This document shows, piece by piece, positions 24,706-31,008 of a stretch of 38,765 nucleotides of DNA. Under the pieces are notes generated by a model. It had not been told where the DNA came from and ran no database searches. It saw only the letters and a list, made by a program, of their open reading frames with translations. Numbering within the stretch: position 1 is the first letter of the stretch; each line of letters opens with the position of its first letter. Source of the DNA: a virus (taxonomy: Duplodnaviria; Heunggongvirae; Uroviricota; Caudoviricetes); IMG/VR virus record IMGVR_UViG_2654587569_000003; one strand, written 5' to 3'. The translations under genes and the position numbers were made by a program.

Positions 24706-24740
24706 GGAGTTTACTCACATCTGACAAAATCAATATAAAC

Positions 24741-24760
24741 AGCCCCTCCGGAGAGGGGCT
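24741..24760. terminator. Perfect hairpin AGCCCCTC-CGGA-GAGGGGCT between convergent cargo ORFs
   Basis: 8-bp stem read directly; flanking U-tracts weak in both orientations. Confidence 0.4.
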
Positions 24761-25137
24761 GGAGAGTGGCGCTATGTGCCATTGCATGGTGCCGGGTGCC
24801 TCCCGGTGAATTCAGTACCAGCACCTGAATCCGCGATTATCCCATATACCTACTCGCTGATTGCCCCTCCGCACAGGTGGATTCACCATGCCAGTTTCTT
24901 TTAACAAACTCCCCGCAAACCAGACAACAGTCAACCGCCTGAATTGTGAAGTATTTAAAAATTTCTCCGGCTAACAGTCTGGCGTTTTCTTTTTCAGCAA
25001 CGGGAAAGCAACAACCACCACACCCGCCACCAGTACACAGTCAGCCAGCACTGACATTATCCGGCTGCTGCAATGCCATTCACAAAAACAGTAAGCAATC
25101 ACTTTTTACCGTAACAGGTGATAATCCAGATATGTAT

Positions 25138-25601: not shown

Positions 25602-25678
25602 TGGCGCGTTGTACTGGATTCGAACCAGTGACCGATTGCTTAGAAGGCAATTGCTCTGTCCGGCTGAGCTAACAACGC
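25602..25678 (-). tRNA. tRNA-Arg (anticodon UCU)
   Basis: Canonical cloverleaf by hand: acceptor GCGTTGT/ACAACGC, anticodon loop CTTCTAA, T-loop TTCGAAT, CCA encoded. Confidence 0.85.
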
Positions 25679-25775: not shown

Positions 25776-25851
25776 TGGTGGCCCTTGCTGGATTTGAACC
25801 AGCGACCTGGCGATTATGAGTCGCTCGCTCTCACCACTGAGCTAAAGGGCC
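25776..25851 (-). tRNA. tRNA with CAU anticodon, Ile2 (ileX-like) type
   Basis: Acceptor GGCCCTT/AAGGGCC, anticodon loop CTCATAA, T-loop TTCAAAT, CCA encoded; resembles recalled ileX. Confidence 0.85.
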
Positions 25852-29492: not shown

Positions 29493-29765
29493 TTACCTCC
29501 AGATGCGTTGCTGGAATGTGCGGGACGGACGCGGTGGGCGTTCGGAATAAGGGAGCCTGACATAGATTATCCAGTGACGATAATCGAGGCTGAGGGCTTT
29601 CTTAATCTCGTATCCGCGTCTGCGGTAGTTATGAATTAGCCATTCGGCCTGTTCTTCAGTACATGGTGGGTGTTGGTACCAGTCGGTTTTAAATGCGTGT
29701 GAACGCCGCCCATGCCGGATGGCAAGGTCGGTATCAGAATTGTGAAATTTGGTTTTGTGCGCCAT
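29493..29765 (-). CDS. Small hypothetical protein (90 aa), Rem-like by position
   Basis: ORF translationally coupled to DUF968 gene; lies between hok and ydfU-like gene as rem does in Qin prophage. Confidence 0.5.
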   Translation of the reverse strand: MAHKTKFHNSDTDLAIRHGRRSHAFKTDWYQHPPCTEEQAEWLIHNYRRRGYEIKKALSLDYRHWIIYVRLPYSERPPRPSRTFQQRIWR

Positions 29766-29932
29766 CTGTTTTCTCTACTGGCGCAGCAGGTGTCAGGTGT
29801 TCAGGCTGACGTGCGAATTGTAAACCAGAATGCCAGGAAAAAACAAAACCCGCCGAAGCGGGTTAAGTGCGGGTGCGTTGAGGATGCCTGACTCATCAGA
29901 GGTGGCGAGGGATTTCCCCCTCGCCTGGTCTC

Positions 29933-30088
29933 TTACTCCTCAGGTTCGTAAGCTGTGAAGACAGCGACCTCCGTCTGGCCGGTTCGGATTCGTACCTCGC
30001 AGAGGTCTTTCCTCGTTACCAGTGCCGTCACTATGACGGTTAAACAGATGACGATCAGGGCGATTAACATCGCCTTTTGCTGCTTCAT
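29933..30088 (-). CDS. hok: Hok-family type I toxin (51 aa), near-identical to recalled HokD
   Basis: Hand translation MKQQKAMLIALIVICLTVIVTALVTRKDLCEVRIRTGQTEVAVFTAYEPEE; AAGGAG SD; absent from track (under 60 aa). Confidence 0.9.
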   Translation of the reverse strand: MKQQKAMLIALIVICLTVIVTALVTRKDLCEVRIRTGQTEVAVFTAYEPEE

Positions 30089-30346
30089 AGCCTGCTTCTC
30101 CTTGACCTTTCGGTCCGTAAGAGGCTAATCTCTATGTGTCGCATAGATATGGCCTCAGATTAATGTTAAGCGTCTTGCAGGACGCGTAATGTTAACTGGG
30201 GCTTTTCTCTATCTGCCTTTTGGTGTTCATGCCTGAGACAGATAGCCTCAAGCACCCGCAGTCATTCTACTTAACTAAGATTTCCCCGCAAACCGTTTTT
30301 GTCCGGCACAGTAAATATCCAACTAAACCAATGGCGTTCGCTGTAT

Positions 30347-30526
30347 TTACCGCCAGTATTCAATGCACATGACCGCCATGAACACCCCTAAAAAAAGGGC
30401 ATTTATATGTCCAAACATTAATATCAAAACATCAACTTTTTCCATATACCTTGCTGTGAAGATGATGGGCATACATGATGCGAACAACCAGAACGCAACA
30501 AACAAAAACTGCAATGCGTTTTTCAT
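30347..30526 (-). CDS. Small two-helix membrane protein (59 aa)
   Basis: Internal Met preceded by GGGGGA SD; MKNALQFLFVAFWLFASCMPIIFTA...LFLGVFMAVMCIEYWR. Confidence 0.5.
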   Translation of the reverse strand: MKNALQFLFVAFWLFASCMPIIFTARYMEKVDVLILMFGHINALFLGVFMAVMCIEYWR

Positions 30527-31008
30527 TATTCCCCCTACAATCAATGTGCAATAACATTTAAACACACCTCAATTTAGCCGGACATATAAATATCTAAACC
30601 AGAAAAAATCACTTACATAGCGTTACAAACTCTTTAGTCTAAATATTCATCGTAAAACATTCCCCATACTTATCAGCCCGTTCTGCGCCAGGTAGCTCAT
30701 TGCCTTATCTGGGAATCTGTAATCAGGTTTCCGGATGCTGGTGGATTTTCGCATTTTAGTTGTTCATAAAAGTGCACAGCTTTAACCAGTTCTTCTGATG
30801 TAACCGGGACTGGCGGGGCAGTGAATAAGGCCTGAATTTCATAGTTCGGCCTGTCGTTACAATCCTCTTTTTTCGGTACATATTTCCAGTCACCAGACCA
30901 CTACTTCCCCTGAAAGTCCGTAACGCCTTTTTTTCACGTAGCGATATCGCCATGCCACTGTTTTTGCTTGCCCCGCCGTTTCATGCCCTTCCTGATAATT
31001 AACCTCGC

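What the first reader, a model, noticed from the sequence alone, without database searches (positions are those of the whole stretch)
29900..30340. Unannotated Hok type I toxin with a mok-like coupled upstream ORF
A 51-codon ORF (29933..30088, minus) translates to MKQQKAMLIALIVICLTVIVTALVTRKDLCEVRIRTGQTEVAVFTAYEPEE, which I recognise as essentially HokD. It is missing from the ORF track because it is under 60 aa. A 19-codon upstream ORF ends in a TGA overlapping the hok ATG, analogous to mok coupling. A GC hairpin GGCGAGG-N-CCTCGCC lies just downstream. The Sok antisense RNA should be on the plus strand in the leader but I could not pinpoint its promoter.
Basis: partly seen in the sequence, partly recalled or inferred. 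Interest (0 to 1): 0.55.

Follow-up and report, generated by a model that had tools for sequence, protein, structure and literature searches.

The report
Intact prophage hokD/sok toxin-antitoxin cassette
This is a complete copy of the long-known hok/sok RNA-controlled toxin-antitoxin cassette, sitting in a lambda-like prophage of E. coli and already labelled hokD in public genomes, so it is real but ordinary; its only small twist is an unusually short version of the upstream helper reading frame.

Summary
Window 29933..30088 (-) encodes a 51-aa peptide identical to K-12 HokD (Pfam HOK_GEF, E 1.2e-23). Rfam's hok-leader model matches 30086..30257 (-) end to end (106.7 bits). Every regulatory element of the R1 hok/sok paradigm is present: promoter and +1 at 30257; tac/fbi 5'-3' pairing; ucb, mok SD and dcb; a 19-codon mok whose TGA overlaps the hok ATG; a protective post-stop hairpin; and a terminator. 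It has a TTGACC-18-TAATCT promoter.

RefSeq annotates the same DNA as hokD in more than 2,500 complete E. coli genomes. The near-identical hokW-sokW pair of prophage Sp5 has been shown experimentally to work as a type I toxin-antitoxin system. The locus lies in the nin region of a Qin/Rac-like lambdoid prophage. K-12 keeps only its 3' half, behind relBE.

The short mok is a recurrent natural allele, found in at least about 600 E. coli records. It corresponds exactly to the first 19 mok codons, which mutagenesis showed to be the only part required in R1. Verdict: already known; low interest.

The parts
30264..30292 (-). hok mRNA promoter: -35 TTTGCG (30292-30287; or TTGCGG with a 16-nt spacer) and -10 TAGAAT (30269-30264)
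   Evidence: Read. The -10 and the bases around it are invariant across diverged loci, while the flanks further upstream diverge (alignment). The generic promoter scan did not flag it, so it is inferred from conservation and from spacing to +1.
29838..30257 (-). Full-length hok mRNA, about 413-420 nt. +1 is G30257; the 3' end lies in the U-run after the terminator.
   Evidence: The Rfam model begins at 30257. Whole-transcript MFE is -171.9 kcal/mol, z = -7.4.
30246..30257 (-). tac (translational activator) box, GGGUGCUUGAGG, mRNA positions 1-12
   Evidence: Pairs with fbi in the full-length fold, with ucb in the truncated and 5'-domain folds, and with positions 19-29 in the nascent 35-nt transcript (metastable hairpin, -16.9 kcal/mol). 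Entropy is 0.00 across 73 loci.
30196..30204 (-). ucb / anti-SD box, AAGCCCCAG, mRNA positions 54-62
   Evidence: Pairs with the mok SD region in the full-length fold and with tac in the truncated fold. This is the switch described for R1 (PMC9841398).
30085..30144 (-). Short mok: 19 codons (MRHIEISLLRTERSRRSRL) plus a TGA overlapping the hok ATG. Its SD, GAGG, is at 30156-30153.
   Evidence: It starts at the position homologous to the annotated mokW, mokC, mokB and FlmC. The same allele is present in 9 unique fetched loci and in at least about 600 E. coli records.
30121..30156 (-). Sok target structure: a mok-SD (GAGGC) / dcb (GCCUC, 30125-30121) stem enclosing the variable hairpin that carries the mok AUG
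   Evidence: Folds of the 5' domain and of the isolated 43-mer. This is the most variable patch of the mRNA (entropy 0.61), with more than 12 alleles.
30102..30131 (+). sok promoter: -35 TTGACC (30102-30107), 18-nt spacer, -10 TAATCT (30126-30131)
   Evidence: Aligns with TTGCCT-17-TAACCT upstream of the annotated SokW of 933W. The -10 matches only 3 of 6 consensus positions, so the generic scan missed it. Promoter mutations in sokW abolish antitoxin activity (PMC8621323), but the mutated bases could not be read.
30138..30206 (+). Sok antisense RNA, about 69 nt: a 13-nt 5' tail complementary to the mok AUG region, a long terminator hairpin (30151-30203), then UUUU
   Evidence: Both ends were transferred from the 933W sokW feature (71 nt) through alignment A1. 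The arrangement matches K-12 sokC and sokB, which overlap the mok start. Fold is -29.3 kcal/mol, z = -5.0. The ends are uncertain by about 2 nt.
29933..30088 (-). hokD toxin CDS, 51 aa. Its SD, AAGGAG, is at 30103-30098, preceded by a GACC-GAAA-GGUC hairpin.
   Evidence: The SD-proximal hairpin exists in two compensated versions, GACC/GGUC and UGCC/GGCA.
29904..29925 (-).
   Evidence: -18.6 kcal/mol. It is present in every family member examined with different stems. All 6 predicted pairs show a compensatory double change. In R1, mutations weakening the last 3' stem-loop abolish toxicity (PMC9841398). Equating that R1 stem-loop with this hairpin is my inference.
29871..29883 (-). fbi (fold-back inhibition) box, CCUCAACGCACCC, mRNA positions 375-387
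   Evidence: Pairs with tac with one bulge, -21.1 kcal/mol. It covaries with tac across five box classes; cognate pairing ranks 2nd of 120 permutations.
29838..29864 (-). Intrinsic terminator of the hok mRNA: stem-loop 29864-29847 followed by a U-run
   Evidence: Terminator scan and fold.

Best explanation
The region is an intact hok/sok-family type I toxin-antitoxin cassette of the hokD/hokW subtype. It is about 450 bp long (about 30292 to 29838) and sits in the nin region of a Qin/Rac-like lambdoid prophage of E. coli. It most likely works as the R1 paradigm does.

1. A weak constitutive promoter makes a stable mRNA of about 415 nt. Its 5' tac box pairs with the 3' fbi box, while ucb sequesters the mok Shine-Dalgarno. 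The full-length RNA is therefore neither translated nor bound by Sok.
2. Slow 3' trimming back toward the GC stem-loop removes fbi. tac then re-pairs with ucb, and the mok SD and AUG are presented in a hairpin.
3. While the prophage is present, the short-lived 69-nt Sok RNA, made from the opposite strand, base-pairs across the mok SD and AUG. This blocks mok translation and marks the duplex for RNase III.
4. If Sok is lost, ribosomes translate the 19-codon mok and open the small hairpin in front of the hok SD. They terminate on the UGA that overlaps the hok AUG, which allows hok to be translated. The 51-aa HokD peptide then inserts into the inner membrane and depolarises the cell.

Shown here by computation: the identity of every element, the alternative pairings, and covariation. 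Inferred from homologues: transcription start sites, 3' processing, RNase III cleavage, coupling, and killing. The biological payoff is inferred only from the hokW-sokW and R1 work. It could be prophage retention, help with lysis on induction, or exclusion of other phages.
For: - Toxin: Pfam HOK_GEF E 1.2e-23; identical to K-12 HokD. HokD is reported toxic on overexpression (preprint 10.1101/2025.08.07.668861).
- Leader: Rfam RF01794, full-length match at 106.7 bits.
- Long-range tac/fbi pairing appears in the MFE and centroid of the whole transcript, z = -7.4. It covaries across 5 box classes in 119 loci, with cognate pairing ranked 2nd of 120. K-12 hokC, whose 3' UTR is cut by IS186, lacks it.
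- Switch: tac/ucb plus the SD/dcb hairpin form in the truncated RNA and the 5' domain, and a metastable hairpin forms in the nascent RNA. This matches the published R1 model (PMC9841398).
- Sok: position, length and promoter are homologous to the annotated SokW of 933W and to K-12 sokC and sokB. hokW-sokW has been shown to act as a toxin-antitoxin pair, with sokW dependent on its own promoter (PMC8621323).
- mok: in R1, only translation of the first 19 codons, up to the hok start, is needed (PMC9841398 section 18). The window's mok is exactly that segment.
- The allele is conserved and widespread, which argues against decay.
- Context: 98.8% identical over 7.6 kb to an annotated prophage early-right region running from cro through O/P-like genes, hokD, DUF968 and RusA to a Q-like gene.
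Against: - Nothing here measures transcription, processing, Sok binding or killing.
- Neither promoter was recognised by the generic sigma-70 scan. The sok -10 matches only 3 of 6 consensus positions.
[quoted passage not shown] A chromosomal prophage copy may therefore be weaker or serve another role.
- In R1 the tested mok stop codons lay after the hok start. A stop that overlaps the hok AUG itself has not, to my knowledge, been tested, so coupling efficiency of this allele is an extrapolation.
- The MFE of my arbitrarily truncated RNA pairs the mok SD with a 3' CCUC instead of dcb. The true 3' end after processing is unknown.
Confidence: 0.9

Rival explanations
1. It is a decaying or silent relic. 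The cassette looks complete, but the 2-nt deletion that puts mok in the frame ending at ATGA is a loss-of-function frameshift. Hok would then never be made, as has been proposed for several chromosomal hok loci.
For: Relative to 58-nt-offset relatives (Rac L003, L103), the window allele lacks 2 nt in the loop just after the mok ATG. Most loci with the identical toxin keep a long mok: 75 in frame and 25 in the +1 frame, against 13 short, out of 123. The chromosomal loci hokA, hokB and hokC failed to mediate post-segregational killing in earlier work.
Against: [quoted passage not shown] Every other element is intact, and tac is invariant. The identical 86-nt allele is present at 100% identity in at least about 600 E. 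coli records. The same ATGA-terminated frame has arisen separately in hokC-type loci (L108, L110) and a hokB-type locus (L160) with different peptides. No stop codons or frameshifts occur in hok itself.
Confidence: 0.07
2. The toxin is expressed mainly as part of the prophage early-right (pR) transcript and not from its own promoter. It would then behave like K-12 relBE-hokD, with the leader and Sok elements being incidental.
For: hok is co-oriented with the cro, O/P-like, nin and Q-like genes. In K-12 Qin, and on an Enterobacter plasmid, hok sits directly behind relBE without its own leader.
Against: Here the complete leader is present, with a conserved -10 and +1, and homology to other cassettes begins about 45 nt upstream of +1. 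That is the pattern of an autonomous module. The tac/fbi logic needs a defined 5' end. hokW-sokW mRNA and sokW RNA are detected before induction (PMC8621323).
Confidence: 0.03

Closest known systems
hokW-mokW-sokW of Stx2 phages 933W and Sp5 (AF125520; PMC8621323)
   Same: DNA is 90.5% identical over 440 bp. Both encode a 51-aa toxin, which differs only at the C-terminal end. The tac, ucb, dcb and fbi boxes, the Sok hairpin and the promoter layout are the same. Both are carried by a lambdoid prophage. The Sp5 system has been shown experimentally to be a type I toxin-antitoxin pair that aids lysis after induction.
   Different: In 933W, mokW is in frame with hokW (57-nt offset, a 70-aa fusion). 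Here the offset is 56 nt and mok stops at ATGA after 19 codons. The Sok 5' tail and target hairpin sequences differ. The genomic position also differs: near the right end of 933W, against the nin region here. The 933W copy loses homology to this locus at about 29861, within the terminator hairpin, and shows no equivalent terminator in the aligned flank.
hokD (relF) of E. coli K-12 cryptic prophage Qin
   Same: The toxin is identical. From just upstream of the hok SD to the terminator (window 30102-29839), the DNA is 97.7% identical. The downstream synteny, with rem-position ORF, DUF968 (ydfU) and Q-like genes, is the same.
   Different: K-12 lacks the promoter, tac, ucb, the mok start and sok. 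relBE abuts the hok SD instead. The window carries the ancestral-looking complete cassette.
hok/mok/sok (parB) of plasmid R1 and flm of F
   Same: The architecture and predicted folding pathway are the same, and 19 mok codons precede hok. The tac/fbi pairing is preserved through compensatory changes (GGCGCUU:AAGCGCC against GGGUGC....GCACCC).
   Different: The toxin is only about 43-45% identical. In R1, mok is 70 aa in the +1 frame (58-nt offset). R1 is on a plasmid, where post-segregational killing has been demonstrated.
Chromosomal hokC/mokC/sokC and hokB/mokB/sokB of K-12
   Same: They belong to the same family. The annotated Sok RNAs overlap the mok start in the same way.
   Different: The toxin subtypes differ: HokC is 82% identical and HokB 35%. 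mokC is in frame and mokB is in the +1 frame. K-12 hokC has lost fbi to IS186.

Membership tests
[quoted passage not shown] | Small hydrophobic Hok/Gef-family toxin (about 50 aa) | tested here: met
   Pfam PF01848 at 82.9 bits against a cutoff of 22, E 1.2e-23. PHROG 251 at E 2.8e-33. 100% identical to K-12 HokD. The NCBIfam Hok subfamily HMM hit is below its curated cutoff (48.5 against 73), but RefSeq still names the protein HokD.
[quoted passage not shown] | Structured 5' leader of about 170 nt that matches the family covariance model | tested here: met
   Rfam RF01794, model positions 1-157 of 157, 106.7 bits against a gathering score of 59. The model is on the hok-sense strand, so it describes the mRNA leader and not Sok itself.
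[quoted passage not shown] | mok leader ORF that starts about 19 codons upstream of hok, has its own SD, and is the target of Sok | tested here: met
   ATG at 30144 with GAGG 8 nt upstream. The position is homologous to the annotated mokW, mokC, mokB and FlmC. This variant stops at the hok ATG (19 codons) and does not overlap hok.
[quoted passage not shown] | cis-encoded antisense Sok RNA (about 60-70 nt) with its own promoter and terminator hairpin, complementary to the mok translation-initiation region | tested here: met
   Placed at 30138..30206 (+) by alignment to the annotated SokW. The fold shows a 5' tail, a hairpin and a U tail, z = -5.0. This is met computationally only; expression was not measured.
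[quoted passage not shown] | Long-range tac (5') / fbi (3') pairing that locks the full-length mRNA | tested here: met
   Present in the MFE and centroid. The duplex is -21.1 kcal/mol. It covaries across 5 box classes, with cognate pairing ranked 2nd of 120 permutations.
[quoted passage not shown] | ucb / mok-SD / dcb switch and a metastable 5' hairpin | tested here: met
   ucb pairs with the SD in the full-length fold. tac/ucb and SD/dcb form in the 5'-domain fold, and the metastable hairpin forms in the first 35 nt. These are thermodynamic predictions only.
[quoted passage not shown] | Stable stem-loop after the stop codon that protects the 3'-processed mRNA | tested here: met
   Hairpin at 29925-29904, -18.6 kcal/mol. 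It is conserved as a structure with compensatory changes. Its role in processing is inferred from R1.
[quoted passage not shown] | Toxicity of Hok, neutralisation by Sok, 3' processing and RNase III cleavage | not testable with these tools
   Known for the identical peptide (HokD) and for the 90%-identical hokW-sokW locus. Not measured for this allele.

The most novel reading that the evidence does not exclude
Beneath an invariant toxin and invariant folding boxes, the 20-25 nt hairpin that carries the mok AUG (the Sok 5' tail and its target) is a hotspot of substitutions and 1-2-nt indels. These give each prophage copy a private Sok specificity and, as a by-product, move mok through all three reading frames. 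This would mean diversifying selection against cross-neutralisation between co-resident hok/sok cassettes. The window's 19-codon, ATGA-terminated mok would be the natural minimal form of the coupling ORF.
Probability: 0.3. Interest if true: 0.4.

Novelty: already known. Interest (0 to 1): 0.15.

Why it matters
The practical value is mainly for annotation.

- The small toxin gene falls below a 60-aa ORF cutoff.
- The mok leader ORF and the Sok RNA are not annotated even in the RefSeq twin of this region.
- Rfam's 'sok' hit lies on the hok-sense strand, so taken at face value it would misplace the antitoxin.

The exact coordinates given here fix these points for this window. Biologically, the locus adds nothing new to the hok/sok paradigm. 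The survey around it gives modest natural-variation support for the mutagenesis conclusion that only translation of the first 19 mok codons matters. It also flags the Sok-target hairpin as the variable, probably specificity-determining, part of the cassette.

Tried and rejected
- The generic sigma-70 scan of 29700-30500 found no promoter. Both promoters had to be placed from homology and conservation.
- I first labelled CUGAGGC (mRNA 100-106) as dcb. After reading the published definitions, I corrected this: that box is the mok SD, and dcb is GCCUC at positions 133-137.
- I looked for the sokW promoter mutations and primers, to confirm the -10 hexamer experimentally. No supplement text is held for that paper.
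- I tested whether the TadA-type UACG at Tyr47 sits in a stable local hairpin. It does not (-0.7 kcal/mol, z = +1.1), so I make no claim about editing beyond citing the preprint.
- NCBIfam gave only sub-threshold Hok hits. I did not use them.
- The relic hypothesis and the pR read-through-only hypothesis were considered and given low weight (see rival explanations).
- The MAFFT alignment of the post-stop hairpin is partly out of register, so its pair counts are conservative.
- I did not build a covariance model of the full mRNA. The duplex and permutation test answered the tac/fbi question.

Full report
**1. Observation**

- It matches Pfam HOK_GEF at E 1.2e-23, 82.9 bits against a gathering score of 22.
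- It matches PHROG 251 'MokW-like host killing' at E 2.8e-33.
- It is residue-for-residue identical to HokD of E. coli K-12.

Upstream, an ATG at 30144 opens a 19-codon ORF (MRHIEISLLRTERSRRSRL). Its TGA at 30087-30085 overlaps the hok ATG as ATGA. The GC hairpin lies at 29925-29904 and folds at -18.6 kcal/mol. Rfam RF01794 matches 30086..30257 on the minus strand over its full length, at 106.7 bits and E 1.9e-23. That model ends at the hok AUG, so it describes the hok mRNA leader and not the antisense RNA, despite the family's name.

**2. Public status**

The same 621 bp occurs at 100% identity in several complete E. coli genomes. At 80% coverage or better it occurs in 2,510 of 5,426 genomes, and it is annotated there as 'type I toxin-antitoxin system toxin HokD'. 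In the 100%-identical record NZ_CP023142, only the hok CDS is annotated, with no mok or sok feature.

Phage 933W (AF125520) is 90.5% identical over 440 bp and annotates mokW, hokW and a 71-nt SokW antisense RNA. A Rac phage record, 94% identical, annotates mok and hok. The hokW-sokW pair of prophage Sp5 has been shown experimentally to be a type I toxin-antitoxin system. HokW arrests growth, and sokW expressed from its own promoter counteracts it. sokW disappears after mitomycin C treatment, and deleting the locus halves phage release (PMC8621323).

**3. Anatomy**

Positions on the mRNA are numbered from G30257 as +1.
- **Promoter:** -10 TAGAAT at 30269-30264, 6 nt before +1; -35 TTTGCG at 30292-30287.
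- **tac:** GGGUGCUUGAGG, positions 1-12.
- **ucb:** positions 54-62.
- **mok:** SD GAGG at 102-105, AUG at 114-116.
- **dcb:** GCCUC, positions 133-137.
- **Hairpin before the hok SD:** GACC-GAAA-GGUC, positions 143-154.
- **hok:** SD AAGGAG at 155-160, AUG at 170, UAA at 323-325.
- **Post-stop stem-loop:** positions 333-354.
- **fbi:** CCUCAACGCACCC, positions 375-387 (window 29883-29871).
- **Terminator:** positions 394-411 (window 29864-29847), followed by a U-run.

The folds behave as the R1 model requires:
- The whole transcript folds at -171.9 kcal/mol (z = -7.4). tac pairs with fbi and ucb pairs across the mok SD.
- Without the 3' end, tac pairs with ucb.
- In the isolated 5' domain, the mok SD pairs with dcb around a small hairpin that carries the mok AUG.
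- The first 35 nt form a metastable tac hairpin at -16.9 kcal/mol.

These are the full-length, truncated and nascent conformations described for R1 (PMC9841398).

**4. Sok**

I aligned the window's plus strand with the reverse complement of the 933W locus and transferred the ends of the annotated SokW. This puts Sok at window 30138..30206 (+), 69 nt. Its start lies 7 nt downstream of TAATCT (30126-30131), and TTGACC (30102-30107) sits 18 nt further upstream. The 933W equivalents are TAACCT and TTGCCT. The RNA has a 13-nt 5' tail complementary to the mok AUG region, a long hairpin and a UUUU tail (-29.3 kcal/mol, z = -5.0). K-12 sokC and sokB overlap their mok starts in the same way. The generic promoter scan missed this promoter because the -10 matches only 3 of 6 consensus positions. 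Its placement therefore rests on homology.

**5. Family tests with related loci**

I collected 80 viral loci encoding the identical toxin, 77 loci from species-representative genomes, six plasmid loci and three K-12 loci.
- **tac/fbi:** five classes of 5' box each pair best, or nearly best, with their own 3' UTR. Examples are GGGUGCUU....GCACCC, GGCGCUU:AAGCGCC and GGGUGCC:GGCACCC. Cognate assignment ranks 2nd of 120 permutations. K-12 hokC, truncated by IS186, has lost the box.
- **Post-stop hairpin:** it is present in every member, with different stems. All six predicted pairs show a compensatory double change.

**6. The short mok**

In R1, mok starts 58 nt (19 codons) upstream of hok. Mutagenesis shows that mok must be translated up to the hok start but not beyond it (PMC9841398). 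Among 123 unique loci with an intact leader:
- 75 have a 57-nt offset, so mok is in frame with hok and gives a 70-aa fusion, as in mokW and mokC.
- 25 have a 58-nt offset (+1 frame), as in R1, mokB and Rac.
- 12 have a 56-nt offset, and 1 has a 59-nt offset. Both put mok in the frame that ends at ATGA.

The window's allele accounts for nine of these unique loci. The same frame has arisen with different peptides in hokC-type loci of E. ruysiae and E. whittamii and in a hokB-type locus. Every Hok sampled starts with ATG-AAx, so this frame always terminates on the hok start.

An 86-nt probe specific for the window allele is 100% identical over its full length in at least about 600 E. coli records. 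The short mok is therefore a common variant and not a lesion, although its coupling efficiency has not been tested.

**7. Context**

Window 36402-28744 is 98.8% identical to the annotated early-right region of a prophage in strain CFSAN061770. The gene order there is cro/CI-family, YdaT, replication-like genes, small nin-type ORFs, hokD, a PHROG 1212 ORF, DUF968, RusA and a Q-like antiterminator.

K-12 Qin has the same downstream synteny (rem, ydfU, ydfT). However, its homology to the window begins only at 30102, just upstream of the hok SD, where relE abuts. The window therefore carries the complete form of the cassette that K-12 retains only as the 3' half ('relF'). Homology to 933W and Rac is confined to about 30300-29845, which fits a mobile module of about 450 bp.

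**8. Variable patch**

Across 73 unique hokD-type loci, per-position entropy is as follows:

| Region | Entropy |
|---|---|
| mRNA 107-131 (mok-AUG hairpin, complementary to the Sok 5' tail) | 0.61 |
| tac | 0.00 |
| mok SD | 0.07 |
| dcb to hok SD | 0.11 |

The coding-region value of 0.04 is biased, because the loci were chosen for toxin identity. More than a dozen alleles of this patch exist. Co-resident cassettes in the same genome mostly differ in it, with one exception in a small sample. This is the only part of the analysis with some potential novelty, and I did not find it discussed in the papers I read. The 2025 preprint explicitly set mok and Sok aside as too hard to annotate.

**9. 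Verdict**

The finding is real and correctly interpreted. It is a textbook system that is already annotated in public genomes and experimentally characterised in a 90%-identical relative. Novelty: already known. Interest: low.

Noticed in passing
window 30127-30151 (mRNA 107-131); loci L002-L107: The hairpin carrying the mok AUG, which is complementary to the Sok 5' tail, is the most variable part of the cassette. Its entropy is 0.61, against 0.11 or less for the neighbouring boxes, and it has more than 12 alleles under an identical toxin. Co-resident cassettes in one genome mostly carry different alleles.
   Followed up: partly
window 30085-30144; L002, L003, L090, L091, L108, L110, L160: Among close relatives, mok occupies all three reading frames relative to hok: 57 nt gives an in-frame fusion, 58 nt the +1 frame, and 56 or 59 nt a stop on the hok ATGA. 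The short form arose in the hokD, hokC and hokB subtypes.
   Followed up: yes
window 29948-29950 (Tyr47 codon UAC followed by G; A at 29949); also GUACGAA at about 29996-29990: The Tyr47 codon sits in CUUACGAA, which I recall resembles the tRNA-Arg(ACG) anticodon loop recognised by the TadA deaminase. A preprint reports Tyr-to-Cys editing at this position in hokD. No stable local hairpin is predicted.
   Followed up: partly
window 30347-30565 (-): A 72-aa strongly hydrophobic ORF lies in an apparently AT-rich stretch (by eye; composition not computed) immediately upstream of the hok promoter. It has no Pfam, NCBIfam or PHROG hit and is not annotated in the RefSeq twin record. It may be a small membrane-protein moron, or not a gene at all.
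   Followed up: partly
window 29712-29891 (+): The RefSeq twin annotates a 59-aa hypothetical protein (WP_001112736.1) antisense to the hok 3' UTR, fbi box and terminator. This is probably a spurious call over structured RNA.
   Followed up: no
window 24731-24920 (-), 25602-25678 (-), 25776-25851 (-), 38296-38347 (+): Other RNA genes of the prophage are present: sRNA STnc100 (123.6 bits), tRNA-Arg(UCU) and tRNA-Met(CAU) downstream of the Q-like gene, and DicF (76.7 bits) on the opposite strand in what looks like the early-left operon.
   Followed up: no
L088 (Enterobacter cloacae plasmid OW967487) against L092 (K-12 Qin): The roughly 200 nt from relE to the hok SD are almost identical in the two loci. 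The toxin behind the junction is R1-like in the plasmid (about 41% identical to HokD) and HokD in K-12. This suggests recombination at the hok SD within a relBE-hok operon module.
   Followed up: no
L102, L111, L117, L122, L123, L124, L138, L156: Enterobacterial-type hok loci sit on mostly short contigs (275 bp to 23 kb, except L156 at 242 kb) labelled Veillonella, Acinetobacter, Xanthomonas, Ferruginibacter, Streptomyces, Oscillibacter, Dysgonomonas and Vagococcus. Most are likely contamination or mis-binning in those assemblies.
   Followed up: no
window 30086-30257 (-): Rfam family RF01794 is named 'sok antitoxin', but its model runs on the hok-sense strand and ends at the hok AUG. Automated annotation from it would place 'sok' on the wrong strand and make it 2.5 times too long.
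   Followed up: yes
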